From an uncultured Rickettsiales bacterium (lineage in GTDB: Bacteria; Pseudomonadota; Alphaproteobacteria; Rickettsiales; UBA1997), in assembly GCA_947167315.1 (NCBI GenBank), contig CAMVHP010000001.1, positions 4,021 to 68,020 of the forward strand: a DNA stretch of 64,000 bases, written 5' to 3'. The translations under genes were made by a program, and so were the position numbers. Positions 5,432 to 62,053 of the stretch are shown here, in pieces. The notes under the pieces were generated by a model. It saw only the letters and a list, made by a program, of their open reading frames with translations. It had not been told where the DNA came from and made no database searches. Numbering within the stretch: position 1 is the first letter of the stretch; every line of letters begins with the position of its first letter.

Positions 5432-6412
5432 ATGCTAGATCTAAAAACAATAAAAAGTAAATCATTAAAAAATGAGTTTTTAACCAGAGAGGAGTGCAAG
5501 GAGGTGTTGAACTGTCCTGACAGTAAAATTAATGAATTAATTGACACCGTTTATGAAATAAGAAAAAAATATAAGGGCAATTTGGTTGAAATACAAATTT
5601 TAACCAACGCCAAAAGCGGTAACTGTAGTCAGGATTGTAAATACTGTGCCCAGTCCTGTGTGTCAAAAGCTAACATAGAAAAATATCCATTAATAGAATA
5701 TGATAAGCTTTTGCAACACGGTAAAATTGGATTGGATAAAAAGGTTGCTAGACATTGTATAGGTTTAAGTGGAATTAAATTCACAGACAAACAAATTGAT
5801 GATTTTTGTGACTATGTAAAAAACCTTAAAAAAGAAGTCAACACCGATATCTGTTGTTCCATAGGTTTTTTAACCAGAGAACAGGCTAAAAAACTAAAGG
5901 AAGCCGGAGTTAATAGAATAAATCATAATCTAAATACCGGTAGAAATAACTACAGCAACATTTGTAGCACTCATACCTATGATGAAAGAATAAAAAACAT
6001 AAAAATGTTTCAGGATGTTGGTTTTGAAATGTGTTGCGGTGGAATAATAGGTTTAGGGGAAAACGATGATGACATTATAGACATGTTAATGGATGTAAAA
6101 AACATAAATCCAAAATCTGTTCCAATAAATTTTCTAATTCCCATAAAAGGTACACCCTTTGAAAAGCAAAATTTAGAAAAATTAACACCAGAATATTGTC
6201 TAAAAGTTTTGTGTTTAGCAAGATTATTAAATCCGCAGGCAGATGTCAGATGTGCCGCCGGCAGAGAGTTATATATAAAGGAAAAACAAAATTTAATGCT
6301 TAAAATAGTAAACTCAATATTTGCCTCCGGATATCTTACGGCCGATGGACAGGGTATAGATGACACAATTAAACTGGTGAAATCCGCCGGTTTTGAGTAT
6401 GTGGTAGAATAG
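5432..6412 (+). CDS. bioB: Biotin synthase (radical SAM)
   Basis: CSQDCKYC radical-SAM triad plus BioB-specific blocks (INHNLNT, CGGIIGLGE, SVPINFLIPIKGTPF, RCAAGRE). The BioB 2Fe-2S ligand positions are conserved in a by-eye alignment to E. coli BioB. Confidence 0.85.
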   Translation: MLDLKTIKSKSLKNEFLTREECKEVLNCPDSKINELIDTVYEIRKKYKGNLVEIQILTNAKSGNCSQDCKYCAQSCVSKANIEKYPLIEYDKLLQHGKIGLDKKVARHCIGLSGIKFTDKQIDDFCDYVKNLKKEVNTDICCSIGFLTREQAKKLKEAGVNRINHNLNTGRNNYSNICSTHTYDERIKNIKMFQDVGFEMCCGGIIGLGENDDDIIDMLMDVKNINPKSVPINFLIPIKGTPFEKQNLEKLTPEYCLKVLCLARLLNPQADVRCAAGRELYIKEKQNLMLKIVNSIFASGYLTADGQGIDDTIKLVKSAGFEYVVE

Positions 6413-8546: not shown

Positions 8547-9410
8547 TTACGAATTTGATTTAATACACATTACTCCAAACGTTTTTCTCTTTGGAGAACA
8601 ATATTTTTCACAATCAGCCTCTTTTGCGATTTCAACTGGAATATCTATATCACAGTCAAAACATATCCCCGCCACATCCATCAAAGGTTTATATGATGGA
8701 CACCGCAATACACTTGGGCGATTTCCTCCCATTTGTGGTAAGATAATTCTGTTTGGGCAAACATCACAAACCGTATCATCCTCCAAACATTGAGTTATCA
8801 CTCTGACGACTTCAGGATAATCGCAGCTAAAACATTTTCCGCTCCATGAACGTAACGGTTTATCTTCAGGACATGATAAATAAGACGCAGTATAGTCTTT
8901 ATCATTATTCCATGGATAGGATATAGATACTCGATTAGGGCAAATCTTTGCATATTCTACAGATAAGTCAATCTCAAAAGGATAGTCACATGGAAAACAC
9001 CATTTTTTTGAACCAGATACGGATAATAGGGGTTTATTCGGTGGACATTTACCATCGTCTGCTTGCATGCCATATTGTTGAATAGCATTGTGTATTTCTT
9101 TAAACTCTCCATCATATACACGATTGTTTTCAATTTTTTCAGCTAAGCAATGTCCATATTTTTCATCTCTTATGGGATATTCTTGGGGACAATTTTTCAA
9201 TCCGCAATATATTTGTCCCCGCGGATAAAAAACCTTTCTGTTGGGGCAAAGAGCTTTACAGGTTTCTCCCGTGTTTATCTCAAAACTGTTTGTATCATTA
9301 CAATCTGTGCATTTTCCATTAATCACAAGCTCACAATTTTGATTTTCTTGCGCATTAACAAAATACGGAAGCAAAATGAGACTCATAATAAACATCAAAA
9401 TTTTATGCAT
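8547..9410 (-). CDS. Secreted cysteine-rich tandem-repeat protein, unknown function
   Basis: The N-terminal signal peptide (MHKILMFIMSLILLPYFVNA) is followed by about four ~55-aa repeats built on CP..KPL....G.CF.CD...C...CPNR. I count 24 Cys. Confidence 0.6.
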   Translation of the reverse strand: MHKILMFIMSLILLPYFVNAQENQNCELVINGKCTDCNDTNSFEINTGETCKALCPNRKVFYPRGQIYCGLKNCPQEYPIRDEKYGHCLAEKIENNRVYDGEFKEIHNAIQQYGMQADDGKCPPNKPLLSVSGSKKWCFPCDYPFEIDLSVEYAKICPNRVSISYPWNNDKDYTASYLSCPEDKPLRSWSGKCFSCDYPEVVRVITQCLEDDTVCDVCPNRIILPQMGGNRPSVLRCPSYKPLMDVAGICFDCDIDIPVEIAKEADCEKYCSPKRKTFGVMCIKSNS

Positions 9411-9443
9411 TTATTACCTCCCAATCGGCAATTAAAATTATTT

Positions 9444-9644
9444 TTAAATTAAGTAATTTATAATTGCTGGAGTTAACCCCTCTATACTCCATCCTTCTTT
9501 TAAAAACGTTGGGAACTCTTCCTCGTAATCCCTCATCACTTGCCAAGCATATTTTTCTGAAACCACTTTTTTCAAGTTCTCTTCTACTTTCTTTTTATAT
9601 TCTTCTAAAGTCATCTTCTGCACTTCTTTTGTTTCTGTGGTCAT
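9444..9644 (-). CDS. Small acidic hypothetical protein (66 aa)
   Basis: The ORF has AAGGGA 9 nt upstream of the ATG and sits between the lolD-like gene and the Cys-rich gene on the same strand. I recognise no family. Confidence 0.4.
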   Translation of the reverse strand: MTTETKEVQKMTLEEYKKKVEENLKKVVSEKYAWQVMRDYEEEFPTFLKEGWSIEGLTPAIINYLI

Positions 9645-9720
9645 TTTGTTTTTCCCTTTTGTTTGTTAACTTTCTCATTTTTGTAATCAAGTCTAAAAGA
9701 ACTAGAAACAATTCAAATAT

Positions 9721-10413
9721 TTACGAAAAATCAACTATTTTTTTATCTTTTATGGTTATGATTTTATCACAATTTTTTGCCAATTCAATGTTATGCGATA
9801 CCATCAACAATGCCAAATTGTATCTTCTGACTATATCAAAAAATAAATTCATAACATTTTTTGAATTAACCTCGTCCAAATTACCGGTAGGCTCATCCGC
9901 CAATATCAACTTTGGATGATTCACCACAGCCCTAGCAATAGCAACTCTTTGTTTCTCACCACCGGACAGCTCCGCTGGCATGTTATTGATTTTATTCTTT
10001 AGATATAAAAGTTCCAGCAATTCTTCTGCTTTTTTGAAAGCTTCCTTTTTGCTGTAGCCGCTAATCAGCAGTGGAATTGCTACATTTTCAAGGGTCGTAA
10101 ATTCTGGAAAAACGTTGTAGGCCTGATAAACAAACCCTATGTTATTTTTTCTAATATTAGTTCTTTCCTTTTCGCTTAATACGGTTGTGTTTACACCATT
10201 TATCCAAACAGAGCCACCCGTGGGTGTGTCTATTAGACCACACATCTGCAACAACGTTGTTTTTCCACAACCAGATTTACCTATAAATGAAACTATTTCA
10301 CCACTCTGTATTGAAAAAGAGGAATCTTCTATAACGGAAAATTCGTTTTTTGATCCCTCTTTAAACTTTTTTGTAATATTTTTAGTTTCTAAAACTATTG
10401 TGCTGATTCCCAT
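9721..10413 (-). CDS. ABC transporter ATP-binding protein, LolD/MacB-type
   Basis: Walker A GKSGCGKTT, signature LSGGEKQR, Walker B LILADEPT. It is colinear by eye with E. coli LolD. No lolC/lolE permease gene is adjacent. Confidence 0.8.
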   Translation of the reverse strand: MGISTIVLETKNITKKFKEGSKNEFSVIEDSSFSIQSGEIVSFIGKSGCGKTTLLQMCGLIDTPTGGSVWINGVNTTVLSEKERTNIRKNNIGFVYQAYNVFPEFTTLENVAIPLLISGYSKKEAFKKAEELLELLYLKNKINNMPAELSGGEKQRVAIARAVVNHPKLILADEPTGNLDEVNSKNVMNLFFDIVRRYNLALLMVSHNIELAKNCDKIITIKDKKIVDFS

Positions 10414-10634
10414 TCTCCAGCGTGACTATTATTGTATTCGATATTACTAGAATCTGCCTCGCTATCTTCAAGTATAACCCCTTCGTCAACTATTGTTTGG
10501 CAAACACCACAATCTATACATTGGCTGGCATCAATCACAAATTCACCTGAATTCTTTCTAAAACAATTACAAGGGCAAGACATTGCCGCTTCTTCCAATT
10601 TTGAGTCTTTTGTTTTAACTACTACTCTTGGCAT
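10395..10634 (-). CDS. Small ferredoxin-like protein derived from the FdxA type, keeping a single 4Fe-4S ligand set
   Basis: SCPCNCF...EFVIDASQCIDCGVC aligns by eye with the FdxA core VCPVDCF...CIDCGVC. The N-terminal CxxCxxxxC and the final CP are missing. Confidence 0.65.
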   Translation of the reverse strand: MPRVVVKTKDSKLEEAAMSCPCNCFRKNSGEFVIDASQCIDCGVCQTIVDEGVILEDSEADSSNIEYNNSHAGEWESAQ

Positions 10635-10692
10635 TAGTTTAAATGTTGTTAAGTAGCCGTTATGCTAAAATATTTTTTGTATAAATCAAGTT

Positions 10693-11919
10693 TTATTTCA
10701 GTCTAAACACCTTAAAGCACCTGTGTAACAGTTCCAAACCATTAGCACAGGCAAAGACCATACCGTAGTTAATATATTTTATATTTAGTTTATCCAACAG
10801 TCGCAACCGTGAATTATATTCCTGTTTGTCTATCATACAACCACCACAAATTATAGCTAAATCATACTTTTTTAACTTTTCCTCTTCCATAAAGGTATCG
10901 CCAAAATTAAAATCAATATTGATATTCTTATAATTTGTAATTTTTTTTATAATGTTAGGGATTTGTACTGTCGCTATATCATTACATTTTCTGTCGTGTT
11001 TACAGGCTTCCACTATCAAAACATTTCCATTATTCTGTAGGTCACATAGCTTTTTAACTCCATCAAAAAATCTTAAAATATTTCCACCACTCATGAAATT
11101 AGTCATCAACATTGAAAATGTTGTTAAATAAACATTATTTGGTATGTAACTGTATATTGTGCCCAAAGCCTGACTATCTGTTATTACAAAAAACAAGTCC
11201 TTTAAACTATCTATAAGGCTTTTAAATTCTTGAGCGTTAAAATCTTTTAGACTAGGTTTATACAATACCGGTATAGCACCAGCCTTTAATAGCCTTTCGA
11301 TTGTTATACTTTGAGGCCTTAGTAGTCGTAATTCCGGACTTTCTTCATCCATTGGTATGACCAGCAAAACAAACCTATTGCATAGGTTTACATTTGGTAA
11401 AAAATCGACAGCATAAACATTTTGTTTTTTATAGTTCTTTATTATAAAATCCGTAACCACCAACTGCTTCGAAAAATCATTACAGTTCACAACTGAACAT
11501 TTACAATCATTAATAACATCATAATTTTTATCGCCGCTAAAATCGTTATAAATTACAAGGTGTTGTTTATTTTGTTTTTTTATGTAAATTAAAGTGTCGT
11601 TTTCTTCTTTTGAAAGTTTTTTAACACCGTTTTTTACAACAAGGATAATCAAATCGCTATTGTCAATAACATTTAGTGTTTTTTGTCTCTTCTTTTCTCC
11701 CAATTCTCCACTTTCATCTATGCCGGCAGTATCAATAATTTTGACCGCACCAAATCCATGTATTTCCATCAAACTCTTTACACTATCCGCCGTTGTACCA
11801 GCTTTATTATCAACTATTGACTTGTTTTTCTGACCCGTTATTAAATTAAAGAGAGTTGATTTACCAACATTCACTTTGCGAACTATACTCATGATGATTC
11901 TCTCTTTAAATTGTCCCAC
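10693..11919 (-). CDS. hydF: [FeFe]-hydrogenase maturation GTPase HydF-like protein
   Basis: N-terminal GTPase (NVGKST, GTTAD, DTAG) and a C-terminal dimerisation/cluster domain with EACKH...CGGC. It is colinear by eye with Thermotoga HydF. The start is GTG at 11919. An ATG at 11892 is an alternative but would truncate beta-strand 1. Confidence 0.8.
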   Translation of the reverse strand: MGQFKERIIMSIVRKVNVGKSTLFNLITGQKNKSIVDNKAGTTADSVKSLMEIHGFGAVKIIDTAGIDESGELGEKKRQKTLNVIDNSDLIILVVKNGVKKLSKEENDTLIYIKKQNKQHLVIYNDFSGDKNYDVINDCKCSVVNCNDFSKQLVVTDFIIKNYKKQNVYAVDFLPNVNLCNRFVLLVIPMDEESPELRLLRPQSITIERLLKAGAIPVLYKPSLKDFNAQEFKSLIDSLKDLFFVITDSQALGTIYSYIPNNVYLTTFSMLMTNFMSGGNILRFFDGVKKLCDLQNNGNVLIVEACKHDRKCNDIATVQIPNIIKKITNYKNINIDFNFGDTFMEEEKLKKYDLAIICGGCMIDKQEYNSRLRLLDKLNIKYINYGMVFACANGLELLHRCFKVFRLK

Positions 11920-11926
11920 TTCGTCT

Positions 11927-13006
11927 TCATTTTATTTTATTAATATAATGCGGGCTAGAATCTTTGTTTGAATAGACTATGTGTAAACCATTATTTTCAA
12001 TGTTTTTAGCAAACAATTTTAATGTTTCATCCCCATCGTTATCAATGTTTGGCTTATTTTGATAAAGTTGATAATTGTGTCTGTTGCTTTTTGGAGTTAT
12101 GGCCGGCATAGCCACATTACTAGCTATTTTTAACGCCGTCATCCTACCATCACCCGAGATAACATCTAAAGCCGTTGCCGCAGCTATGTTTGCTGTAGGT
12201 TTACATATTCTTAACATACACAAAAAATTCAAGGTTTTATTTAAAATTTTAAATTTGTTTTTATTCCAGTTGTCAATATTTTCAATAGTGGCTAACGGAG
12301 TATCCGTATGTATTATGTACGGCCCAAGTCCAAACATATCAAATTTATCATCCAGAAAAAATCTTAGATCCTTTACAATATCTTCATCCGTCTGATGCGG
12401 TACCCCTATCATGTTTCCGGTTCCCACCTGATAGTCAGCATCATTCAAATCCTGTAGACATTGCAATCTCTTTGCATGTGAATGGTCAGATGGATGCAAT
12501 TTTTTATATAATTCTTCGCTACTGGTTTCGATTCTCAACAGATATCTATTTACCCCCAATTCCCGCAGTTCTTTATAAAAATCAAAATCAAATTCACCAC
12601 TTGACAGTGTTATGTTTAAAAAATTATACTTATTCTTTATGGTTTTGATAACGTTTCTTAAATAATCCTTAAAGTCATCAGTGGTTAATTCACCGGACTG
12701 TAAAACTATCGACTGTATTTTACTATCCACAACAAAATCAACACAACTCATTATGTCTTCAATACTTAATCTGTATCTGATAACTTTACTATTGCCACTT
12801 CTTATGCCACAGTATAGACAATTTTTTCTACAGATATTTGAAAATTCAATTAATCCCCTCGCAAAAACTCCATTACCAAAAACATCGTTTTTAACTCTGG
12901 ATGAATAATTCCACAATTTCTTCTGCTGTTCTCCTTCACAGTTTAGTACTTCAATTAATTCTTTATCATTAAAATTAATCAAATTTTCAAAATTGTCTAT
13001 AGTCAT
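11927..13006 (-). CDS. hydE: [FeFe]-hydrogenase maturase HydE-like radical SAM protein
   Basis: EFSNICRKNCLYCGIRSGN, IVLQSGE, VNRYLLRIETS, GTGNMIGVPHQT and FDMFGLGPYI.H.DTPLA align block for block by eye with Thermotoga HydE. Confidence 0.85.
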   Translation of the reverse strand: MTIDNFENLINFNDKELIEVLNCEGEQQKKLWNYSSRVKNDVFGNGVFARGLIEFSNICRKNCLYCGIRSGNSKVIRYRLSIEDIMSCVDFVVDSKIQSIVLQSGELTTDDFKDYLRNVIKTIKNKYNFLNITLSSGEFDFDFYKELRELGVNRYLLRIETSSEELYKKLHPSDHSHAKRLQCLQDLNDADYQVGTGNMIGVPHQTDEDIVKDLRFFLDDKFDMFGLGPYIIHTDTPLATIENIDNWNKNKFKILNKTLNFLCMLRICKPTANIAAATALDVISGDGRMTALKIASNVAMPAITPKSNRHNYQLYQNKPNIDNDGDETLKLFAKNIENNGLHIVYSNKDSSPHYINKIK

Positions 13007-15780
13007 TAGTGAACTTCACTCCAATTTGTTCCGGTTTTTAACTCAACCGGTAATTTTATGTCAAAGGTTACCACATTTTCCATAGTATCCTTAACAATCT
13101 GTTTAACCTCCTCTAAACAATCGTTTTTAACCTCAATTAGCAATTCGTCGTGTATCTGCAGTATAATTTTAGCATCATAATTTTTTATTCCATTATACAC
13201 GCCAATCATCGCTTTTTTTATGATATCGGCACCAGTACCCTGTATCGGTGCATTTATAGCCAACCTTTCCAAAAATGACTTCTGTGGTTCCTTAGAATTA
13301 ATCAAATCTATGTAGCATACCCTGCCAAACATCGTTTTAACAAAACCATTTTTGTTAGCAAAAAACTTTATGTTTTCCATATAGTCTTTTATTTCCGGAT
13401 ATAAATTAAAGTAACTGTTCATATAATTTTTAGCATCACTGTTACTCATATCAAGTCTTTTAGCAAGGCCATATTGAGTTGTACCATACACTATACTAAA
13501 GTTAATAGCCTTCGCCATTCTTCTCATCTCCGGCGTTATTTCGTCCGTTTTAAATACAGTTTTTGCCGTTTCGGTATGTATATCTAAATTATTTTTAAAA
13601 CTCTCTATTAATTTAACCACATGAGCATACTGTGCTAATATTCTCAATTCTATTTGTGAATAATCAACGCCTATGAAACTATAACCGCTTTTAGCAACAA
13701 AAGTTTTTCTAATTTTTTCACCATCATCGGTTCTTATTGGTATATTCTGTAGATTTGGATTGTTGGAACTTAGACGACCAGTTATAACGTAGGTATTTGA
13801 ATAGGTTGTATGAACTCTTGAATCTTTGTCAATCAATTTCTGCAGTGTGTCCGTATAGGTATTTTTTAACTTCGTATAGTGTCTATACTCCAAAACATCT
13901 CCGGCTATATCAAACCCCATCTGGTACAAAGTTTCCAATATCTCAACATCCGTAGAATACACACCAGATTTGTTTGCTTTTTTCACAGGCGGTAAATTCA
14001 TTTTATTAAACAATATCTCGCTTAGCTGCTTTGGTGAATTGATATTAAATTCAACACCAGCGGTTTTATAGATATTTTCCTCAAGTCTCAATAGCTCTAT
14101 GGAAAAATAATTAGATAACTTTTTTAATTCCCCAATGTCGATTTTAACCCCCACAAACTCCATATCCGCCAAAACTTTCACCAGTGGATTTTCCACCTCA
14201 TCATAAAGTTTTTTTAGCTCAGTATTTTCATCTTCTTTTAATCTACCGGATAATATTTCATGAATTATACCAAAAACATCTATTTTAAAACAATTAAAAT
14301 TAAAAATATTATCCGTTAACTGTGCCAAATCTTTACCTTTGTCATACTGCTCCAAAACAGTGTTATTTTTTTCAAGATTATTCATCTTAATTTCAGCATT
14401 ATTCATCAGGTAATTTTCAATTATTCCACTTAAGTTATGCCTATATTTTCCATTGTCCAACAGATAGGACATGACGGAAATATCATCATAATTCACAATG
14501 TCTATACTATATCGCCTCAAAATTCTGATTTGCTTCTTCACATCATAGGATATTTTTAAAAGTTTATCATTTTCAAACACGGGTTTCAAAATATTCAAAA
14601 CATCGTGTAGCAACAGACAATCATTTTTAACATTTCCACCATCAAACAAATCATACTTTTCATTGTCATCGCAGATGCACACATAAAACACAAGATTTTT
14701 ACTTACATCATCGAAACATATTGAAGTAATTGAATTAAAATCATCTACAAAATTATTTGACAACTCAATTTCTAACCTGTCATTATTTTTCACCAACTCG
14801 GCGCAAACTTCATTTAGTGTTTTAATGTCTGTAATTTTTTTGTACCTACTGTTATTTTCACCACCCGAAGGCAGCACATCGTTTTCCACAGAAAATATTT
14901 TTTCTATTTCCTTTGCTATGCTATTAAACTCCATCCTATAGAGAAAATCTTTAAATTTTATCGGATCAAAGTTTTTAAATGTTAGTTCATCAATGTCAAC
15001 ACCCAAATCAACATCATCACACAAAGATATAAGTTTTTTTGACAATAACAATTTATCCATGTTTTCAACTATTGCTCTTTTTCTCTTTTCTTGTTTTATA
15101 TCATTAACGTTTTCTATTAAATTATCCAAACTACCAAAGGTATTCATCAATTCAACAGCTGTTTTTTCACCTATACTGGGAACTCCTGGTACATTATCCG
15201 AAGAGTCTCCCATCAGAGACAAAACACCCAAAAGTTGCTCAGGTTTTACTCCCCACTTTTCCTTAACTTCCTCCACACCTATTTTTTTAGCATCTTTTGT
15301 TTCATACAAAAATATATTTTCATTCACCAACTGCATCAGATCCTTATCGCTCGATATAATCCACACCTCGTAACCGTCCTTTTCTGCTTTTTTTGCCAAA
15401 GTTGCTATGACGTCATCTGCCTCATAGCCATTCTTTTCAATTGTTTTTATATTTAAAACCTCCACCACCTCTCTAATTATAGGAAATTGTGGTTTCATAT
15501 CCTCCGGAACTGGTGGTCTATTGGCCTTATAGTCCTCATATAATTCATTTCTAAATGTTCTATTACCCGTATCAAAAACAACCGCTATATGTGTACTTTT
15601 TAACTCTATAATTAAATTCATTAACATCCTAGTGAAGCCATAAACACCATTCACAGCAAGACCATCACTTCTTTTTTTAATATTTTTCAATGCGAAATAT
15701 GCCCTAAAGAAAAAGTTGTAGCCGTCCACCAAAACAAGTCTTTTCTTATCCATTTTTTTTAAAAAAATGATTTTATTCAA
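13006..15780 (-). CDS. polA: DNA polymerase I
   Basis: 924 aa. 5'-nuclease domain (LVDGYNFFFRAYFA), a central 3'-5' exo-like domain, and polymerase motifs (DYSQIELR, RRMAKAINFSIVYG, QIHDELL). An internal start at MDKKRL is possible. Confidence 0.95.
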   Translation of the reverse strand: MNKIIFLKKMDKKRLVLVDGYNFFFRAYFALKNIKKRSDGLAVNGVYGFTRMLMNLIIELKSTHIAVVFDTGNRTFRNELYEDYKANRPPVPEDMKPQFPIIREVVEVLNIKTIEKNGYEADDVIATLAKKAEKDGYEVWIISSDKDLMQLVNENIFLYETKDAKKIGVEEVKEKWGVKPEQLLGVLSLMGDSSDNVPGVPSIGEKTAVELMNTFGSLDNLIENVNDIKQEKRKRAIVENMDKLLLSKKLISLCDDVDLGVDIDELTFKNFDPIKFKDFLYRMEFNSIAKEIEKIFSVENDVLPSGGENNSRYKKITDIKTLNEVCAELVKNNDRLEIELSNNFVDDFNSITSICFDDVSKNLVFYVCICDDNEKYDLFDGGNVKNDCLLLHDVLNILKPVFENDKLLKISYDVKKQIRILRRYSIDIVNYDDISVMSYLLDNGKYRHNLSGIIENYLMNNAEIKMNNLEKNNTVLEQYDKGKDLAQLTDNIFNFNCFKIDVFGIIHEILSGRLKEDENTELKKLYDEVENPLVKVLADMEFVGVKIDIGELKKLSNYFSIELLRLEENIYKTAGVEFNINSPKQLSEILFNKMNLPPVKKANKSGVYSTDVEILETLYQMGFDIAGDVLEYRHYTKLKNTYTDTLQKLIDKDSRVHTTYSNTYVITGRLSSNNPNLQNIPIRTDDGEKIRKTFVAKSGYSFIGVDYSQIELRILAQYAHVVKLIESFKNNLDIHTETAKTVFKTDEITPEMRRMAKAINFSIVYGTTQYGLAKRLDMSNSDAKNYMNSYFNLYPEIKDYMENIKFFANKNGFVKTMFGRVCYIDLINSKEPQKSFLERLAINAPIQGTGADIIKKAMIGVYNGIKNYDAKIILQIHDELLIEVKNDCLEEVKQIVKDTMENVVTFDIKLPVELKTGTNWSEVH

Positions 15781-15877
15781 AGATAATTTTTATTATTTAA
15801 AAAACAATTAAAATTAATTATTATTGTTTTTATAATTTATTGTTTTACAATTTATGTAAGAATTTTATTTTTTTACA

Positions 15878-16372
15878 ATGACCAAAGAATTTGTAGCAAT
15901 AGGAAAAATTTTAACAACACATGGCCTAATTGGAAACATTAAACTAGAAAGTTTTTGTGAAAATCCGGAGGAAATATTTAGCTATAATTTATATACCAAC
16001 AATGGCAACAAAATATCCTGCAGAAAAGTCGGTAAAACAAGCAAAAATAATATTTTTATAGCAAAAATTGACGGTGTTAACTCCATAGATGAAGCAATGG
16101 AGCTTAAAAATAATGAAATATTTGTCAAGAGAGAAGAACTACAGGAAACAGAAGAAGATGAAGTTTACATTGACGATCTGCTTAACATGAAGGTCAACGG
16201 AGACGGAAAAACTGGCTCCATTATCGATGTATATAACTACGGTGCCGGTGACGTTATTGAAATAAAATGGGATGATAACAAAATCGAATCCGTACCATTT
16301 ACAAAAGATTTCATAAAAGACGTAGATAAAGAAAACAATATTATATACATAAATTTACCAAAATACATTTAG
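15878..16372 (+). CDS. rimM: 16S rRNA processing protein RimM
   Basis: 164 aa. IGKILTTHGLIGNIKLESF N-terminal barrel plus a PRC-barrel-like C-terminus (GAGDVIEIK). Confidence 0.85.
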   Translation: MTKEFVAIGKILTTHGLIGNIKLESFCENPEEIFSYNLYTNNGNKISCRKVGKTSKNNIFIAKIDGVNSIDEAMELKNNEIFVKREELQETEEDEVYIDDLLNMKVNGDGKTGSIIDVYNYGAGDVIEIKWDDNKIESVPFTKDFIKDVDKENNIIYINLPKYI

Positions 16373-16376
16373 TACG

Positions 16377-16958
16377 ATGACAAACAAAAAAATCAGCAGC
16401 CTGTTGGAAGAGATAAAAGATATATCCACCGAAGACGTAATAACGGTGGGTACAATATTAGACAACATAAAAGATAGCAAGTACTTGGTGATATTGTTCA
16501 CAACCATACTAATTCTAGCTCCAATTCCCATATTATCCACGATTTTTGGTATTATCTGTGCTACACTTATGGTACAGATAATATCCGGTAAAAAAAAACT
16601 AGCGCTTCCAACATTTGTTTTAAATTTTAAAATAAAAAGGAAGGCACTGGTTTATTCATTGGATAAAATTAATTATTTATTAAAAAAAATTGAGCGTTTC
16701 ACCAAAAATAGACTTTTATTCTTTACTAACGAAAAGTTTATAAATATTTCACTACTTTTTCTATCAATTTTGAGCATATCGCCGGTGCCTTTAGCCTGTT
16801 TTTTTGCAGGTTTTGGAATGGTGTTAATAATTTTTGGCTTTTTAAACAAAGATGGTCTATTTATTCCGTTGGGTATATTAAGCGGAATGATTGATATATG
16901 TATACACATAATTTTATTCATTTGTGGAGCAAATTTTCTGTCTAAATTAATGCACTAA
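16377..16958 (+). CDS. ExoD-family (exopolysaccharide synthesis) membrane protein
   Basis: ITVGTILDNIKD...LILAPIPILSTIFGI...ISGKKKLALP followed by several TM helices fits the ExoD family layout. Confidence 0.7.
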   Translation: MTNKKISSLLEEIKDISTEDVITVGTILDNIKDSKYLVILFTTILILAPIPILSTIFGIICATLMVQIISGKKKLALPTFVLNFKIKRKALVYSLDKINYLLKKIERFTKNRLLFFTNEKFINISLLFLSILSISPVPLACFFAGFGMVLIIFGFLNKDGLFIPLGILSGMIDICIHIILFICGANFLSKLMH

Positions 16959-19082: not shown

Positions 19083-19817
19083 TTAATCTTCGGATGTTGT
19101 GCTTGAAGTATTATCTTCTAACACCGTTGGTACTATAGTTAAGCTACCGGATAATGGTAAACCATCATCTATTTTATTGTCAAGCGAAACTAATACAGAA
19201 GCATCAATACCACCAGTGGAACTACCATAATTCTCTACAGCCAATCTATTTATTTGATTATAGCTCCCATCTATATCATCTCCTCTAACATAGACAAATA
19301 GTTCCCTAAGCCCCTTTATTGTAGGGTAGTAGTTTCCCTCTCTTATCTCAGCTCTGGTGTTTAACTGTTCATTGGAACCTACGTAGTCATTATCCAGAAG
19401 ACCAGCTAAACATAGATGTTGGAAAAAGTTTAAGCTTTCAGCATTAGTTACCTCTCCGGATTCATTTATTAGGTAATCATTGGATTTGTTTTTATCTATT
19501 TTGGATTTGGCTTTGGGACCTAATTTGCTCTGGGGATCCTCCAGTATACCCGGAAGATTACCATATTTAGCCTGAAAGGTTTCGGTGGCTACCACATAGT
19601 TGTTTAGTTCTCGGGTGATGTTAACTATCTTGGAGGCGCTTATCATGTTAGAGGCTTTAACCACTCCTAATATTAGTAAACCCAATATGACTAATACTAT
19701 GGACAACTCTATGAGAGAAAAGGCTGAAAGTGAGGTGGTAACTATATTGTTGGTTGCGACATCATTAACGTCAGTGTTAATGTTAGTATTAGTTTTATCG
19801 ATATTTTGTAACATCAT
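19083..19817 (-). CDS. Type IV pilin / pseudopilin with a long leader peptide
   Basis: Class III signal ...SLSA|FSLIELSIVLVILGLLILGV with Glu at +5, preceded by a 32-aa leader. A strong GGAGAA RBS sits 5 nt upstream of the ATG. Confidence 0.75.
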   Translation of the reverse strand: MMLQNIDKTNTNINTDVNDVATNNIVTTSLSAFSLIELSIVLVILGLLILGVVKASNMISASKIVNITRELNNYVVATETFQAKYGNLPGILEDPQSKLGPKAKSKIDKNKSNDYLINESGEVTNAESLNFFQHLCLAGLLDNDYVGSNEQLNTRAEIREGNYYPTIKGLRELFVYVRGDDIDGSYNQINRLAVENYGSSTGGIDASVLVSLDNKIDDGLPLSGSLTIVPTVLEDNTSSTTSED

Positions 19818-29686: not shown

Positions 29687-31627
29687 CTACACTTCCATAG
29701 CCGATGTCATATCAACGACTCTGGTTAGTTCATTAAGTGTTGTGTAACCCATTATAACCTTCTGCATACCATCAATCTGCATTGGTATAAAGCCGTTTTT
29801 ACTCAAATACTGTGTGAATTCCTTTTTAGTGGCTCTTCTAGTAATCATTTCATCAAGTTCCTTATCTATATCTATTATTTCAGCCACAGCCATTCGCCCA
29901 GCAAAACCGGTATTTCTACATTTTTCACAACCGACGGAATCATACAATTCTGGCACTTTAGAGGCAATTTTTTCCCCCAACACTCTAGTAATCATACCTT
30001 TTTCCTGATCCGTCACCGGTCTTTTCTTTTTGCAATGTGGACATAGTTTTCTCGCCAATCTCTGTGCTATAACACAGATTAAAGAACCGGACAATAGGTA
30101 TGGTTCAACACCTATCTGCATTAATCTAGGAATAGCAGAAAATGCATCGTTTGTATGTAATGATGAAAACACCTGGTGTCCGGTCATAGCTGCCTGAACC
30201 GCAGCCAAAGCCGTTTCTCTATCCCTGATTTCACCCACCAATATAACATCTGGGTCTTGACGCATTAACGTTCTTATACCATCAGCAAAGTCCAAACCAA
30301 TATCCGGATTAATGTTTGTCTGTCTCAACAGCGGTATTCTATACTCCACTGGGTTTTCCAAAGTCATTATATTCTTTTCAATGCTGTTTATCATACTCAG
30401 CACAGTATACAAAGTTGTGGTTTTACCACTACCAGTAGGACCTGTTATGATAACTATTCCCTCTGGTCTTTTTATACATTTTTTTATTATATTTTGTGTT
30501 TTAGGAAAATAGCCTAATTTATCTAGATTTAATATTGCCTTCTTTTCATCAAGAATTCTCATTACGATGTTTTCACCATCCACCGTAGGTTGACTGGACA
30601 CCCTGAAGTCGATATTTCGTCCTAAAATTTGTGCATTAATTCTTCCATCCTGCGCCTTTCTGGTTTCGGCAATATTCATTCCGGACATAATCTTAATTCT
30701 GACAGCAATGGAACTCCAATAATCCTTATGAAAAGCTTTAATTTGCTCCATCTTACCGTCAATTCTATATCTTAATCGTAGGAAAAAATTTTCAGGTTCA
30801 AAGTGTAAGTCAGATGCTCCAACTCTAACAGCATCAGTCAAAATAGCATCCACAAGTCGCACCATAGGGCTTTTATAGTCTCCACTGGCCGCCTGCTCAT
30901 CGGATGATGCAACTCCGGTCTCAATTTCTCTTAGAATTCCGTCAATAGACATATCATAGTCATAGTATCTATCTATGGCATTTGTTATGTCAGATTCAGA
31001 AGCATAAACCAACTGTATTTTGTAGTTTTGCGGAAAAAATCTTTTTAGTTGGTCGGATACTATAATGTTAAAAATATCGGTTGTGGCAACCGTCACCGTT
31101 TGCTTTACCAGACCAACCGCTATAACCTTATTTTGTGTGGCAAAACCCTTTGGAATTTTTCTAACCAATTTTTGGTCTATAATTAGGGATTTCAAATCAA
31201 AATTTTTTACATCACTGTTGGCGTTTAATATTTCAGAAAGTGTTTTATCACTAATAAAACCCATTCTAACCAATATGGATGTAATATCTTCATTATTGTC
31301 ATTACGCTTTCTTTCCCTAACAGCAACTTCAATTTGGTCCTTTGAAATTATCTGTTTTTTTACTAATTCATCAAGAATATTTATATTTTTGCTTCCGGTG
31401 GAGTTAGAATCTCCATTGGTGTTCGTTTCGGTCCCAGAATTACCATTAGTGTTTTCGTTTTTAACAGTAGTTTTTGTAGTACCAGCATCCGTTGCTTTCG
31501 CTGTAACGGCTTGAGCAGCTGCCTGCTTACCGGTGTCTGAATCTGTAGCTACAGTTCCAGCTGTACCGGCACCCTCAACGGCCTTTGATTCTGTTTTTTT
31601 CTCTTCAACTACTTTATTTTCCGTCAT
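29687..31627 (-). CDS. Type II secretion / type IV pilus assembly ATPase (GspE/PilB/MshE family) with an ~82-aa low-complexity N-terminus
   Basis: T2SSE_N-like region (ILDELVKKQIISKDQIEVAV...ILVRMGFISDKTL), Walker A GPTGSGKTTTLY, Asp and His boxes, and the tetra-Cys Zn site CPHCKK...CEKCRNTGFAGR. Confidence 0.9.
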   Translation of the reverse strand: MTENKVVEEKKTESKAVEGAGTAGTVATDSDTGKQAAAQAVTAKATDAGTTKTTVKNENTNGNSGTETNTNGDSNSTGSKNINILDELVKKQIISKDQIEVAVRERKRNDNNEDITSILVRMGFISDKTLSEILNANSDVKNFDLKSLIIDQKLVRKIPKGFATQNKVIAVGLVKQTVTVATTDIFNIIVSDQLKRFFPQNYKIQLVYASESDITNAIDRYYDYDMSIDGILREIETGVASSDEQAASGDYKSPMVRLVDAILTDAVRVGASDLHFEPENFFLRLRYRIDGKMEQIKAFHKDYWSSIAVRIKIMSGMNIAETRKAQDGRINAQILGRNIDFRVSSQPTVDGENIVMRILDEKKAILNLDKLGYFPKTQNIIKKCIKRPEGIVIITGPTGSGKTTTLYTVLSMINSIEKNIMTLENPVEYRIPLLRQTNINPDIGLDFADGIRTLMRQDPDVILVGEIRDRETALAAVQAAMTGHQVFSSLHTNDAFSAIPRLMQIGVEPYLLSGSLICVIAQRLARKLCPHCKKKRPVTDQEKGMITRVLGEKIASKVPELYDSVGCEKCRNTGFAGRMAVAEIIDIDKELDEMITRRATKKEFTQYLSKNGFIPMQIDGMQKVIMGYTTLNELTRVVDMTSAMEV

Positions 31628-40063: not shown

Positions 40064-41449
40064 TTGATGAAGTCTCTAGGATTCTCAATACTGTTTCTGT
40101 TTTTGTGCACAAGTGCGAATGTTGTTTTGTGTATGGAATCGTCGCAATCTAAACAAAAAATTCTAGAGGAATTTCGAAAAAAACTTTTAGAAGAAGAGGA
40201 AATACAGAGAGAATTAAAGAAAAACGTTACCTTAACAAATGAAGACTTTAACGATTTAGTTAAAAATAATGACGAACAAACATTAAAGGATGTATTTGAA
40301 TCCATAAAACCAACAGAAGAAGAAAAAAAACTAAAGGAAGAAGCAAAAAAGAAAGCGGAGGAAGAGAAAAAAAGAAAAGCTGAAGAGAAGAAAAAGATAG
40401 CTGAAGAAGAGAAAAAGTTAAAGGAGGAAGAAAAGAGAATAAAGGCTGAAGAAAAAAGACTGAAGGATGAAGAAAAAAAGCAAAAAAAAGCAAAAACTGA
40501 AGAGGAAAAGAAACAGAAAAAAGAGGAAGAGGAAAGACTAAAAAAAGAAAAAGATGAACTAAAACAAAAACAGGACGAATTGGAAAGGTCTAAGAAAGAA
40601 CAAAACAGCGGTAAAACTTCAAAGACAACCAATGCACAAAAACAAGAGCAAGACCAAAGTGCTTTAAGCTATAGGGAAATTGATAGTGCAAAACCTGGTG
40701 TTTTGGAAAAAATATATAACATAACAGATACTGGAGTTTCCAATGAATTTTTGTACAGTAGAGAATATCAAGAACTTATAAGTAACAAAACCACAATAAC
40801 AAAAGTTGACACAAACAAAGAAAGCGACATTCCGGTTGTATATTTAGCAGAAAAAAATATAATAAGTTTTGATAATACCGACATACCAAATGAGTTGCTA
40901 ACCTATAAAAGATCTACTGAAAATAGGCACATACCAACGATAATGTCAACGGCCGACATGCAAGAAATTGCCATCAAAGCAATAGAAAACAATAATTTAT
41001 CAGTTTTAAGAGGTGTTATAGAGCAAACAAAAGATCCGGATTTTTTAATAGACAGAAATAGAACGTTACTAAACTTTGCTATAGAAAGCAAAAAATATAT
41101 TTTAGCTAGATACCTAATCTACAGTGGAGCAAGCATAAACAGGCTTGACAATAAACTAAATAATCCACTACATGTATCTGTTATTAATCACAGTAGTGAT
41201 ATAGCAGATTTACTAATGGAAAATGGTGTTGATATAAACGCACAAAACATTGATGGTGATACGCCATTACTATTGTCAATAGCTACAAGTCAGGATGATT
41301 TAACGATAAAACTATTGAAAAACGGAGCAAATTTACGAATAAAAAATAAACAGGGAGACGATGCTGTGAGTTTGGCGATAAAAAATAACAAAAGAAAAAT
41401 ACAACAATATCTACAGGATATAATAAGACAAGAGGAAATGAACAAATGA
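40064..41449 (+). CDS. Secreted ankyrin-repeat protein with a K/E-rich coiled region
   Basis: A signal-peptide-like N-terminus (MMKSLGFSILFLFLCTSANVVLC) precedes ~100 aa of EEKK-type charged repeats. The C-terminus has ANK repeats (NPLHVSVINHSSDIADLLMENGVDINAQNIDGDTPLLLSI..., LLKNGANL). Confidence 0.85.
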   Translation: MMKSLGFSILFLFLCTSANVVLCMESSQSKQKILEEFRKKLLEEEEIQRELKKNVTLTNEDFNDLVKNNDEQTLKDVFESIKPTEEEKKLKEEAKKKAEEEKKRKAEEKKKIAEEEKKLKEEEKRIKAEEKRLKDEEKKQKKAKTEEEKKQKKEEEERLKKEKDELKQKQDELERSKKEQNSGKTSKTTNAQKQEQDQSALSYREIDSAKPGVLEKIYNITDTGVSNEFLYSREYQELISNKTTITKVDTNKESDIPVVYLAEKNIISFDNTDIPNELLTYKRSTENRHIPTIMSTADMQEIAIKAIENNNLSVLRGVIEQTKDPDFLIDRNRTLLNFAIESKKYILARYLIYSGASINRLDNKLNNPLHVSVINHSSDIADLLMENGVDINAQNIDGDTPLLLSIATSQDDLTIKLLKNGANLRIKNKQGDDAVSLAIKNNKRKIQQYLQDIIRQEEMNK

Positions 41450-60442: not shown

Positions 60443-62053
60443 TTGAAAAAATATATATCAATCTTAACTATACTGCTATTGGTCTCGTCCTGTGAATTTT
60501 TTAGAGGAATAAAAGAGCCAAATCCGACGGTGGATAGTTGGAGGAATATTAAAAGAGACGATGTAAAAAATACACTGTTTGATGTAAGAGATGACTATCA
60601 AGGTATAACTTCAGATTTTGATGATAACAATCTTAATGTTTCAAAGTTGTTATCAACTCCACCACCACCGGAGATGGGAAATGGTGAATTGATATCCTTT
60701 TCCATAACTGAAGAGGTGCCACTGAAGGATATTTTTATCGAATTGGGTAGGTTGGCCGATGTTGATATACAGATAGACCCAACTATAAATGGTGGAATAA
60801 TACTAAAAGTAACAGATAAACCATTAAATGTTGTGGTTGAAAAAATATGCGATATTGCTAACCTAAAATATGAATACAGTAACAATATACTAAAAATAGA
60901 AAGGGATTTACCATACATACAAGATTACGATGCAGATGTGTTGGTGGGACACGATATGTGGGATGAGATTGAAAAAACAATAGATTATCTGTTAAAAATA
61001 TATCCGGTTAAAAAACAAACTGGCGTACAAGTTGGTGTTGGTGGTTTAGAAGATTCAATACAGCAAAGTATTTCAAATATATCAGAATCTGATTCTGAAA
61101 TTGAACAACAGGTCAGCATTAATAAACCTGCTGGAATAATTAGTGTGTACGCCAATAGTAAAGCTCAAAAAGCCATAGATGAATACATTAGAAAAATTAA
61201 GGCTAGGTATGCTTCACAGGTTTTGATAGAAGCGAAGGTTGTGGAAGTTAAATTAAATGATAGCTACAAAGCTGGTATAAACTGGACGGTAACAAAAGAT
61301 ACTGGTGAAACCGATGAAGAAGGAAATGTTGTAAAAGATACATTACTATCAATAGTTGGTGCCGGTGGTTCCAGTAAGGGTTTAACAAAACTATCTTTCA
61401 ACAAAAAAATAAAATCAAGGGATTTAAATGTTGTTATTGATGCTATGCAGGAATTTGGTGATACAAAGACATTGTCAAGTCCAAGAATAAGTACATTAAA
61501 CAACCAAAAAGCAACACTAGATTTTATAAATACACTAGTATACTTTAGTGTTGAAAAGGAAGAAGATGGTGAAGACAGTGATGGTAATACAAAATATACG
61601 TATACATCCACAAAGCAAGAGGAGGAGGTGGGTGTAAAATTGGAAATAACTCCAACAATTGATATGAAAAACAGAGATATCACTCTATCGGTTAAGCCAG
61701 AATTATCGTCTTTGGCCGGTTATGTTAGCGATCCGGTTAATGAGGGTAATCAGGTTCCACAGATACAAAAAAGAAGTTTAGAAACCTCATTAAAAATAAA
61801 GTCCGGTGAAGTTATGGTGATAGGTGGTTTGATGTCAGAAACCATATCTAACAGCAGTTCTGGAATTCCGTTTTTGATGAATATTCCAATTTTAGGAAAT
61901 CTGTTTAAATCAAGAGGAGATTCAAAGGAATTGATCGAAACTGTAATATTTATAAAGGCAACAATAGTTGACAAGGACAATCCACTGTCAAACAGCAAAG
62001 ATAAAAAGCTATTTAATGACTTTGGAAAAAGTAATAACTACTACAGAGATTAA
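60443..62053 (+). CDS. Lipoprotein secretin of a type IV pilus/T2SS-like system (MshL/PilQ-like)
   Basis: TTG start and lipobox LLVSSC. The secretin domain blocks are VLIEAKVVEVKL, TLSSPRISTLNNQKATL, VGVKLEITPTI and SGIPFLMNIPILGNLFKS...ELIETVIFIKATIV. Confidence 0.85.
   Translation: MKKYISILTILLLVSSCEFFRGIKEPNPTVDSWRNIKRDDVKNTLFDVRDDYQGITSDFDDNNLNVSKLLSTPPPPEMGNGELISFSITEEVPLKDIFIELGRLADVDIQIDPTINGGIILKVTDKPLNVVVEKICDIANLKYEYSNNILKIERDLPYIQDYDADVLVGHDMWDEIEKTIDYLLKIYPVKKQTGVQVGVGGLEDSIQQSISNISESDSEIEQQVSINKPAGIISVYANSKAQKAIDEYIRKIKARYASQVLIEAKVVEVKLNDSYKAGINWTVTKDTGETDEEGNVVKDTLLSIVGAGGSSKGLTKLSFNKKIKSRDLNVVIDAMQEFGDTKTLSSPRISTLNNQKATLDFINTLVYFSVEKEEDGEDSDGNTKYTYTSTKQEEEVGVKLEITPTIDMKNRDITLSVKPELSSLAGYVSDPVNEGNQVPQIQKRSLETSLKIKSGEVMVIGGLMSETISNSSSGIPFLMNIPILGNLFKSRGDSKELIETVIFIKATIVDKDNPLSNSKDKKLFNDFGKSNNYYRD

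What the first reader, a model, noticed from the sequence alone, without database searches (positions are those of the whole stretch)
10693..13008. hydE-hydF maturase pair fused into the polA transcription unit, with no hydrogenase or hydG in view
ORF 11927-13006 matches HydE block for block by eye (EFSNICRKNCLYCGIRSGN, VNRYLLRIETS, GTGNMIGVPHQT, FDMFGLGPYI.H.DTPLA). It is distinct from the bona fide BioB at 5432-6412. ORF 10693-11919 has the HydF layout of a GTPase plus a C-terminal CxH...CxxC. The hydE ATG (13004-13006) shares one base with the polA stop (13006-13008), and hydF starts 7 nt after hydE. HydE and HydF are known only as parts of the HydE/F/G machinery that builds the H-cluster of HydA. 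Here they sit among housekeeping genes of a compact, AT-rich genome. Either this organism has an anaerobic H2 metabolism that would be notable for its lifestyle, or the pair is orphaned and doing something else.
Basis: partly seen in the sequence, partly recalled or inferred. Interest (0 to 1): 0.68.

Follow-up and report, generated by a model that had tools for sequence, protein, structure and literature searches.

The report
HydE–HydF hydrogenase maturases behind polA
Two genuine [FeFe]-hydrogenase cofactor-assembly genes (hydE, hydF) sit directly behind the DNA polymerase I gene in a small, AT-rich gut bacterium labelled Rickettsiales. They look functional and were probably acquired sideways, most likely as part of an ordinary scattered hydrogenase gene set, although the rest of that set could not be looked for.

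Summary
ORF 11927-13006(-) is HydE: NCBIfam TIGR03956 scores 305.7 bits against a cutoff of 254.6. ORF 10693-11919(-) has the full HydF architecture (GTPase, HydF_dimer and HydF_tetramer domains) but scores 290 bits, below the 325.6 cutoff. The polA stop and hydE start overlap in TAATG. There is no hydA or hydG anywhere in the 64 kb.

The window comes from a ruminant-gut MAG that NCBI labels "Rickettsiales bacterium". NCBI already names its HydE, but calls its HydF only "50S ribosome-binding GTPase".

The pair belongs to a monophyletic clade of HydE/HydF (100% NJ bootstrap) found in related MAG contigs. polA-hydE-hydF is conserved in four lineages. The closest outgroup (named members Patescibacteria/CPR) carries hydA-hydG-hydE-hydF operons, which suggests lateral acquisition.

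HydE is as conserved as PolA. The catalytic residues of both proteins are intact, except that the His of HydF's HCxxC motif is lost clade-wide.

Lack of nearby hydG/hydA is normal: 11 of 19 outgroup hydE loci also lack both. The best reading is therefore an ordinary dispersed hyd regulon in an anaerobic gut lineage (about 0.65). An orphan pair is not excluded (about 0.17). I could not run a whole-genome check.

This particular sequence also carries a strain-specific 61-nt patch of 8 substitutions. The patch changes the hydE stop, the hydF start and the P-loop glycine.

The parts
13006..15780 (-). polA (DNA polymerase I, 924 aa as listed; 915 aa in siblings). It is the first gene of the likely transcription unit.
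   Evidence: Pfam 5_3_exonuc_N, 5_3_exonuc, DNA_pol_A_exo1 and DNA_pol_A. It lies divergent from rimM/exoD, as in L001, L004 and L090-L094.
13004..13008 (-). TAATG overlap of the polA stop and the hydE start, suggesting translational coupling.
   Evidence: Read directly in the sequence. The same overlap is in L090 and L097. L001 and L004 have a 2-nt gap (TAAATATG).
11927..13006 (-). hydE, the radical-SAM [FeFe]-hydrogenase H-cluster maturase (359 aa).
   Evidence: TIGR03956 scores 305.7 bits against a cutoff of 254.6. T. maritima HydE matches at E 7e-62. C59/C63/C66 (CX3CX2C), M224, M300 (=TmM291), R154, R158 and E160 are all conserved. There is no C-terminal auxiliary-cluster Cys motif.
11869..11929 (-). 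Strain-specific patch of 8 substitutions spanning the hydE stop, the hydF start and the P-loop.
   Evidence: 8 of the 17 mismatches to sibling contig L091 over 21,227 bp fall here. The effects are GGT->TGA, ATG->GTG, I10M, G14R and M16V. The glycine is present in all other HydFs aligned.
10693..11919 (-). hydF, the GTPase/[4Fe-4S] scaffold maturase (408 aa from GTG; 399 aa from the internal ATG).
   Evidence: MMR_HSR1, HydF_dimer and HydF_tetramer are all present. TIGR03918 scores 290.1 bits, below the 325.55 cutoff. PDB HydF structures 3QQ5, 5LAD and 5KH0 match at E 1e-38 to 1e-40. The [2Fe]-pocket residues and 3 Cys + His are conserved, while the HCxxC His is replaced by Ile.
10395..10634 (-). 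79-aa FdxA-like ferredoxin ORF, 58 nt downstream of hydF. It keeps Cys20, 39, 42 and 45 only.
   Evidence: The best NCBIfam match is FdxA_Protbact at 39.7 bits (cutoff 135). Pfam Fer4_13 scores 22.5 bits (cutoff 24.5). It is called as a gene in all sibling contigs and is absent near hydF in L001, L004 and L005.
9721..10413 (-). LolD-like ABC ATPase whose start overlaps ORF79 by 19 nt. It may be the tail of the same transcription unit.
   Evidence: TIGR02211 LolD scores 253 bits (cutoff 308), and Pfam ABC_tran matches. The same order is seen in the siblings.

Best explanation
These are functional H-cluster maturase genes of a dispersed [FeFe]-hydrogenase regulon. The host is an anaerobic, gut-dwelling bacterium with a small genome that NCBI labels Rickettsiales.

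Shown:
- hydE and hydF are authentic members of their families.
- They form a clade specific to these MAGs.
- They are tightly packed behind polA, through stop/start overlaps conserved in several lineages.
- HydE evolves as slowly as PolA.
- The residues known to handle the iron-carbonyl-cyanide substrate in HydE, and to hold the [2Fe] precursor and [4Fe-4S] cluster in HydF, are retained.

Inferred mechanism:
- polA-hydE-hydF, possibly continuing into the fdxA-like ORF and lolD, is one transcript, giving low constitutive expression.
- HydE uses SAM radical chemistry to convert the HydG product [Fe(Cys)(CO)2(CN)] into the [2Fe] precursor.
- HydF receives the precursor beside its [4Fe-4S] cluster, the dithiomethylamine bridge is added there, and HydF delivers it to apo-HydA.
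- hydG and hydA are encoded elsewhere in the genome.

Inferred history: the genes entered the lineage by lateral transfer from a donor like the CPR/Patescibacteria-type organisms whose hydA-hydG-hydE-hydF operons hold the closest outgroup sequences. They were later scattered by genome rearrangement.
For: - Family scores and domains support both identifications.
- The clade is monophyletic in 60/60 (HydE) and 50/50 (HydF) NJ bootstraps. The clade plus the CPR-like group separates from the Bacteroidota/Firmicutes HydEs in 60/60.
- A CPR outgroup has a NuoF-like gene, hydA, hydG, hydE, hydF and a TM1266-like gene in one cluster. hydG adjoins hydE in L008, L010, L011, L012 and L014.
- polA-hydE-hydF is conserved in the window and its siblings, L001, L004 and L097.
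- HydE identity to those relatives is 77/75/72%, against 74/75/69% for PolA.
- HydE keeps 77 of 83 outgroup-conserved columns. It also keeps CX3CX2C, M224, M291, R155, R159 and E161 (residue roles from PMC10114646).
- HydF keeps the equivalents of T241, D242, S243, Q244, F262, S263, D306, I307 and Y376, plus 3 Cys and the CxH His (residues from PMC13360658).
- Local absence of hydG and hydA is the norm: 11 of 19 outgroup hydE loci with at least 5 kb on each side lack both.
- GC content is not anomalous across the genes.
- The source is a ruminant gut. Rumen Rickettsiales ASVs are reported as protozoa-associated (PMC11222294).
- The HydG product is unstable in water (PMC10114646), so HydG probably acts in the same cell.
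Against: - No hydG or hydA was seen in the 64-kb window or in any of about eight distinct clade neighbourhoods of roughly +/-10 kb. The nearest outgroups keep hydG adjacent.
- HydF falls below the NCBIfam equivalog cutoff.
- 21 of 94 outgroup-conserved HydF columns have shifted, against 6 of 83 in HydE (Fisher p = 0.006).
- The His of HCxxC is lost in all 19 clade members but kept in 98 of 100 outgroup sequences.
- In this sequence the first glycine of the P-loop is Arg.
- The rest of the genome could not be examined.
Confidence: 0.65

Rival explanations
1. Orphan pair with a changed job. The lineage kept hydE-hydF but lost, or never received, hydG and hydA. The two proteins would then build or carry some other iron-sulfur or organometallic species, or process a different sulfur-containing substrate.
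For: hydG and hydA are absent from every clade neighbourhood seen, while the sister group keeps hydG next to hydE. HydF shows a clade-wide shift, including loss of the HCxxC His and of several Arg/Glu/Trp positions in the dimerisation domain. HydF scores below the equivalog cutoff. HydE can act on non-physiological thiazolidines in vitro (PMC10114646).
Against: The HydE pocket and the HydF [2Fe] pocket are unchanged, which is not expected after a change of substrate. HydE is as constrained as PolA. Dispersed hyd genes are common. The sequence sampled covers only a few per cent of any genome. I found no report of a HydE/HydF pair working without HydG in vivo. The in vitro HydF(E) activation cited in PMC9431212 is only about 1%.
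Confidence: 0.17
2. A relic on its way out. The hyd system is being lost in this strain or lineage, and the genes persist only because they are wedged into the polA operon.
For: In this sequence HydF has G14R in the P-loop, a GTG rather than ATG start, and sits next to a shortened hydE. All three changes lie within one 61-nt patch. Small AT-rich symbiont-like genomes commonly shed pathways.
Against: Both ORFs are intact in every relative, across HydE identities from 55% to 99%. HydE shows PolA-level conservation. The contigs carrying the sibling HydF (P0241; 15 read) have the canonical glycine and ATG start. The patch could be an assembly or consensus artefact.
Confidence: 0.08
3. Misannotation: the proteins belong to neighbouring radical-SAM (BioB/PylB/ThiH) and GTPase (Der/MnmE) families rather than to HydE/HydF.
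For: HydF is below the NCBIfam cutoff, and PGAP named it only '50S ribosome-binding GTPase'.
Against: HydE is 51 bits above its cutoff and 200 bits above the next family. HydF has both HydF-specific Pfam domains and aligns end to end with HydF structures, while Der reaches only 71 bits. True BioB, MnmE and Obg are encoded separately in the window.
Confidence: 0.02

Closest known systems
HydE (TIGR03956; T. maritima HydE structures 3CIW/5FEP/7O1O)
   Same: The match is full length and above the equivalog cutoff. It has the CX3CX2C motif, both Fe-handling methionines, the RYLLRxET motif and a (beta/alpha)8 radical-SAM core alignment.
   Different: It has no C-terminal CX7CX2C auxiliary-cluster motif, which is reported as dispensable (PMC9431212). 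It is not next to hydG. Its start overlaps the polA stop.
HydF (TIGR03918; Thermotoga/Thermosipho HydF structures 3QQ5, 5LAD, 5KH0)
   Same: It has the three-domain layout, G1-G3 elements, three cluster cysteines plus the CxH His, and conserved [2Fe]-pocket residues.
   Different: It scores below the equivalog cutoff. G4 reads N-x-F-x instead of NKxD, a trait shared with the CPR-like subfamily. The HCxxC His is lost in the whole clade. An extra conserved Cys312 precedes the (N/D)-D-I motif. In this sequence the first P-loop Gly is Arg.
CPR/Patescibacteria-type hyd operon (L008/L009: nuoF-like, hydA, hydG, hydE, hydF, TM1266-like)
   Same: It is the closest outgroup for both proteins (47-48% HydE and 41-46% HydF identity). 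It shares the HydF subfamily traits and the adjacent hydE-hydF order.
   Different: hydA and hydG are contiguous with hydE-hydF there. Here the pair is embedded among housekeeping genes with neither in sight.
Maturase cluster of Anoxychlamydiales (hydE-hydF-hydG in an obligate-symbiont phylum; PMC7449678)
   Same: Both are cases of H-cluster maturases turning up in a bacterial group known for intracellular, host-dependent members living in anoxic settings.
   Different: Those genomes show hydG and a separate hydA/hydB/hydC cluster, and their maturases group with eukaryotic ones. Here hydG and hydA are unseen, and no eukaryote relationship was tested.

Membership tests
HydE (NCBIfam TIGR03956 rSAM_HydE) | Whole-protein score at or above the curated equivalog cutoff | tested here: met
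   305.7 bits against a cutoff of 254.6; the next family, PylB, scores 101 bits.
HydE (NCBIfam TIGR03956 rSAM_HydE) | Radical-SAM CX3CX2C cluster motif | tested here: met
   C59-x3-C63-x2-C66, invariant in 17 clade and 101 outgroup sequences.
HydE (NCBIfam TIGR03956 rSAM_HydE) | Substrate/product-handling residues of TmHydE (M224, M291, R155, R159, E161) | tested here: met
   The window has M224, M300, R154, R158 and E160. All are invariant or near-invariant in the clade. Residue roles are from PMC10114646.
HydE (NCBIfam TIGR03956 rSAM_HydE) | Co-occurrence with hydG and hydA in the same genome | not testable with these tools
   Neither is present in the 64-kb window or in about eight clade neighbourhoods.
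HydF (NCBIfam TIGR03918 GTP_HydF) | Whole-protein score at or above the curated equivalog cutoff | tested here: not met
   290.1 bits against a cutoff of 325.55, although the alignment is end to end (6-395 of 392) and the next family reaches only 71 bits.
HydF (NCBIfam TIGR03918 GTP_HydF) | GTPase + HydF dimerisation + HydF tetramerisation domain architecture | tested here: met
   PF01926 scores 69 bits, PF18128 56.8 bits and PF18133 113 bits, all above their gathering scores.
HydF (NCBIfam TIGR03918 GTP_HydF) | Canonical GTPase motifs G1 (GxxxxGKS/T) and G4 (NKxD) | tested here: not met
   G1 reads R14-K-V-N-V-G-K-S in this sequence, whereas Gly is present in all other HydFs aligned. G4 reads N-D-F-S, and the N-x-F-x form is shared by the clade and the CPR-like outgroup. 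G2 (GTT) and G3 (DTAG) are present.
HydF (NCBIfam TIGR03918 GTP_HydF) | [4Fe-4S] motif CxH...HCxxC | tested here: inconclusive
   C306, H308, C358 and C361 are present and invariant. The His before C358 is Ile here and non-His in 19 of 19 clade members.
HydF (NCBIfam TIGR03918 GTP_HydF) | [2Fe]-precursor pocket residues (TmeHydF T241, D/E242, S243, Q244, F262, S263, D306, I307, Y376) | tested here: met
   The window has T247, D248, S249, Q250, F268, S269, D314, I315 and Y385. They are conserved in 17-19 of 19 clade members. The residue list is from PMC13360658.
FdxA-type ferredoxin (NF045490), for ORF79 | Score at or above the cutoff and both cluster-binding Cys motifs | tested here: not met
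   39.7 bits against a cutoff of 135. Only Cys20, 39, 42 and 45 of the FdxA pattern remain (sequence). The assignment of these four to the [4Fe-4S] site rests on my recollection of Azotobacter FdI.

The most novel reading that the evidence does not exclude
A whole clade of gut-dwelling, Rickettsiales-labelled bacteria retains only HydE and HydF, with no HydG and no [FeFe]-hydrogenase. The clade-wide remodelling of HydF (loss of the HCxxC histidine and shifts in the dimerisation domain) would then mark a new use. Two examples are assembling a non-hydrogenase iron cofactor, or acting on an iron-carbonyl or sulfur intermediate obtained from a hydrogenosome-bearing protist host.
Probability: 0.17. 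Interest if true: 0.8.

Novelty: new member of a known kind. Interest (0 to 1): 0.35.

Why it matters
If the rest of the hyd system is present, this clade would show that bacteria classified with the Rickettsiales can run [FeFe]-hydrogenase-based anaerobic metabolism in animal guts. That order is best known for aerobic, host-dependent members.

This touches the debate on whether alphaproteobacteria ever carried eukaryote-type H2 metabolism; PMC7449678 notes its absence from most of them. However, the distance trees here point to lateral acquisition from CPR-like donors, not to alphaproteobacterial ancestry, which limits that implication.

There is also a practical point. HydF of this clade escapes NCBI's equivalog model and is annotated only as a ribosome-binding GTPase. 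Automated surveys will therefore under-count maturase sets in these genomes.

If instead hydG and hydA are truly absent, the clade would be a natural experiment on what HydE and HydF can do alone.

Tried and rejected
- Exact-sequence contig look-ups for the window's HydE, for P0121 and for LeuRS found nothing, because gene starts are called differently. Look-ups of the sibling proteins P0001 and P0241 worked.
- The single genome-contig scan returned one relative (L001) and could not be repeated, so the MAG could not be screened for hydG or hydA.
I reused those loci as a base-rate sample.
- I considered spending the last large protein search on a CPR HydG query, to fish for a clade HydG. A local control and the narrow 44-51% identity range of HydG beyond close relatives showed that a clade HydG would not rank within the 120 hits listed. 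I did not run it.
- Literature searches pairing Rickettsiales with HydE/HydF, FeFe hydrogenase, rumen ciliates and Arkhamiaceae found no description of these genes. The supplements of PMC10847448 list rumen MAGs but no hydrogenase terms.
- Promoter and terminator scans of 9400-16400 found no more sites than shuffled sequence, so they neither support nor refute co-transcription.
- My first clade definition wrongly included P0017. The tree showed it belongs to the CPR-like group, so I redefined the clade.
- My initial idea that the missing NKxD motif signalled decay was rejected, because the CPR-like outgroup with complete operons shares it.


Full report
**What is in the sequence**

On the minus strand, polA (13006-15780) ends ...CAC TAA, and the A of its stop codon is the A of the hydE ATG (TAATG, 13004-13008). 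hydE runs 11927-13006 (359 aa). After 7 nt, a GTG at 11919 opens a 408-aa ORF that ends at 10693.

**Family identity of the two proteins**

The first protein matches NCBIfam rSAM_HydE at 305.7 bits, above the 254.6 cutoff. The next families score far lower: PylB 101, ThiH 73, BioB 71 and HydG 61 bits. Its best solved relatives are T. maritima HydE structures (E 7e-62).

The second protein carries Pfam MMR_HSR1, HydF_dimer and HydF_tetramer, all above threshold. It aligns end to end with NCBIfam GTP_HydF, but at 290.1 bits against a cutoff of 325.55. It also aligns with the three solved HydF structures.

BioB at 5432-6412 is a separate, genuine BioB (352 bits against a cutoff of 225).

**The rest of the window**

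A Pfam/NCBIfam pass over 57 of the window's ORFs of at least 100 aa (the rest overlap longer ORFs) found only housekeeping and envelope functions. These include aminoacyl-tRNA synthetases, rho, the shikimate pathway, Tol-Pal, type IV pilus/T2SS parts, an ankyrin protein and ferritin. There was no hydrogenase large-subunit domain and no HydG-type protein. tblastn with a CPR HydG and HydA against the whole window agreed.

**Where it comes from**

- The HydF and HydE sequences belong to clusters that contain NCBI proteins MBR2141134.1 and MBR2141135.1 from a "Rickettsiales bacterium" MAG. NCBI already calls the latter HydE, but calls the former only "50S ribosome-binding GTPase".
- Near-identical contigs occur in several independent assemblies. 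These include GCA_017475895.1 and a sample labelled XIEF21-1, part of a ruminant gastrointestinal MAG series.
- A 77%-identical HydE lies in a water-deer colon MAG.
- Gene-transfer-agent genes on a relative's contig fit an alphaproteobacterium.
- Rumen Rickettsiales ASVs have been reported as specific to the protozoa-associated fraction (PMC11222294), and rumen MAGs were noted among uncharacterised Rickettsiales (PMC10847448).
- I found no paper that discusses Hyd maturases in them.

**The family around it**

Database searches gave about 16 HydE and 19 HydF clusters at 50-99% identity. After those, identity drops to 48-50% (HydE) and 41-44% (HydF). The named members at that lower level are Patescibacteria/CPR: Moranbacteria, Gracilibacteria, Peregrinibacteria and Falkowbacteria.

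- Bootstrapped neighbour-joining trees make the clade monophyletic: 60/60 for HydE and 50/50 for HydF.
- The trees join the clade to the CPR-like group, against the Bacteroidota and Firmicutes HydEs, in 60/60 replicates.
- In a CPR outgroup the genes sit in a complete cluster: a NuoF-like gene, hydA, hydG, hydE, hydF and a TM1266-like gene.
- hydG adjoins hydE in every close outgroup locus with enough flank.

Within the clade the arrangements differ:
- polA-hydE-hydF in the window and its siblings, L001, L004 and L097;
- hydE, then a Bro-N gene, then hydF in L005;
- a lytic transglycosylase gene followed by hydE-hydF in L006;
- hydE alone after recA in L002;
- hydF alone between tig and rpmF in L095.

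None of these has hydG or hydA within about 10 kb. GC content across hydE and hydF equals that of their neighbours, so any transfer is old.

**Are they working genes?**

- Against L001, L004 and L097, HydE is 77, 75 and 72% identical, while PolA is 74, 75 and 69%. HydF is 62, 63 and 58%, similar to RimM at 65%.
- Of the columns at least 95% conserved in the outgroup, HydE keeps 77 of 83 and HydF keeps 73 of 94 (Fisher p = 0.006).
- In HydE, the residues that structural work ties to catalysis are invariant in the clade. These are the CX3CX2C cysteines, Met224 and Met291 (which bind the Fe(CO)2CN species) and the RYLLRxET arginines and glutamate (PMC10114646).
- In HydF, the residues placed around the [2Fe] precursor are conserved. 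These are the TmeHydF equivalents of T241, D242, S243, Q244, F262, S263, D306, I307 and Y376. The three cluster cysteines and the CxH histidine are conserved too (PMC13360658).
- Two HydF oddities are subfamily traits shared with CPR organisms that have full operons: G4 reads N-x-F-x instead of NKxD, and an extra Cys precedes (N/D)-D-I.
- One change is clade-specific. The His of HCxxC is replaced by I, M, L, A, V or T in 19 of 19 clade members, against His in 98 of 100 outgroup sequences.

**How much does "nothing in view" mean?**

Very little. Among 19 outgroup hydE loci with at least 5 kb on both sides, 7 have hydG, 2 have hydA and 7 have hydF nearby, and 11 have neither hydG nor hydA. The clade's record of zero in roughly five independent arrangements is only mildly unusual. 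It speaks to linkage, not to presence.

**Interpretation**

The most economical reading is a canonical maturase pair whose partners are encoded elsewhere.
- HydE's pocket is built for the HydG product, which is unstable in water (PMC10114646). HydG probably therefore acts in the same cell.
- The habitat is anoxic, so hydrogen-evolving fermentation is expected there.

I put this reading at about 0.65. The orphan reading (about 0.17) draws on three points: the uniform lack of linkage, the HydF shift and the sub-cutoff score. Against it stand the unchanged pockets of both proteins. A decay reading (about 0.08) applies at most to this strain. Misannotation is effectively excluded.

Co-transcription with polA is inferred from overlapping or abutting stop and start codons conserved across lineages. 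The promoter and terminator scans were uninformative.

**A strain-level curiosity**

Over 21,227 bp the window differs from sibling contig L091 at 17 positions, and 8 of them lie within 61 nt (11869-11929). Relative to the siblings, and at the hydF sites to all more distant relatives, the window shows these changes:
- GGT->TGA, which makes HydE 7 codons shorter and removes the 14-nt hydE/hydF overlap;
- ATG->GTG at the hydF start;
- I10M;
- G14R in the P-loop;
- M16V.

The glycine is present in all other HydFs aligned. The patch is a private mutation or recombination patch, or an assembly artefact. Read mapping would tell. It means that the "7 nt after hydE" detail is not the typical state of this species.

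**What I could not do**

I could not screen the whole MAG for hydG and hydA. I did not run the last large protein search for HydG. A control showed a clade HydG would not surface in the 120 hits listed.

**Verdict**

The arrangement behind polA is conserved, and the lineage-specific HydE/HydF clade with CPR-like affinities is a modestly interesting evolutionary note. The "orphan maturase" idea remains possible but is not favoured.

Noticed in passing
window 11869-11929 (minus strand): Of the 17 differences from a 99.9%-identical sibling contig (L091), 8 cluster in 61 nt. They change the hydE stop, the hydF start codon and the first glycine of the HydF P-loop (G14R). This is either a private mutation or recombination patch, or an assembly artefact.
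   Followed up: partly
window 10395-10634 (minus strand): A 79-aa ORF 58 nt downstream of hydF looks like a cut-down FdxA ferredoxin. It keeps Cys20, 39, 42 and 45 but lacks the other cluster's cysteines. Its best NCBIfam match is FdxA at 39.7 bits, far below the cutoff. It is called as a gene in all sibling contigs but is absent near hydF in more distant relatives.
   Followed up: partly
HydF alignment: window residues 126-129 and 312; loci L008/L009: The whole HydF subfamily shared with CPR-type organisms has N-x-F-x in place of the guanine-specificity motif NKxD. It also has an extra conserved Cys just before the (N/D)-D-I motif, where Thermosipho HydF has its labile Glu ligand. Nucleotide specificity and the fourth cluster ligand may differ in this subfamily.
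   Followed up: partly
window 8547-9410 (minus strand): A 287-aa protein with a signal-peptide-like N-terminus is very rich in cysteine and has a recurring C-P-N-R-type motif. It has no Pfam or NCBIfam match. A 279-282-aa version is present in the sibling contigs.
   Followed up: no
window 40064-41449 (+), 29687-31627 (-), 60443-62053 (+), 19083-19817 (-): These are an ankyrin-repeat protein plus a T2SS/type IV pilus ATPase, a secretin and a prepilin-like protein. They could be host-interaction or attachment equipment, of the kind discussed for Rickettsiales.
   Followed up: no
L093 6166-8914 (GCA_017475895.1): In the NCBI sibling assembly polA is called as two genes (163 aa and 762 aa), which suggests a frameshift or a sequencing error there. 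It is intact in the window and in the other siblings.
   Followed up: no
L005 11091-11909: In one clade member a Bro-N domain gene, typical of mobile elements and phages, is inserted between hydE and hydF.
   Followed up: no
L095 2116-5721; L004 208-1392: Gene-transfer-agent-type genes (GTA_TIM, Phage-tail_3, Rcc01698_C) and a phage capsid gene lie on relatives' contigs. This is consistent with an alphaproteobacterial host.
   Followed up: no
L002 and L095 (both from ANDE20-1 samples): In the most divergent clade members hydE (after recA) and hydF (between tig and rpmF-plsX-fabH) are unlinked. The pair is therefore not obligatorily co-located.
   Followed up: partly
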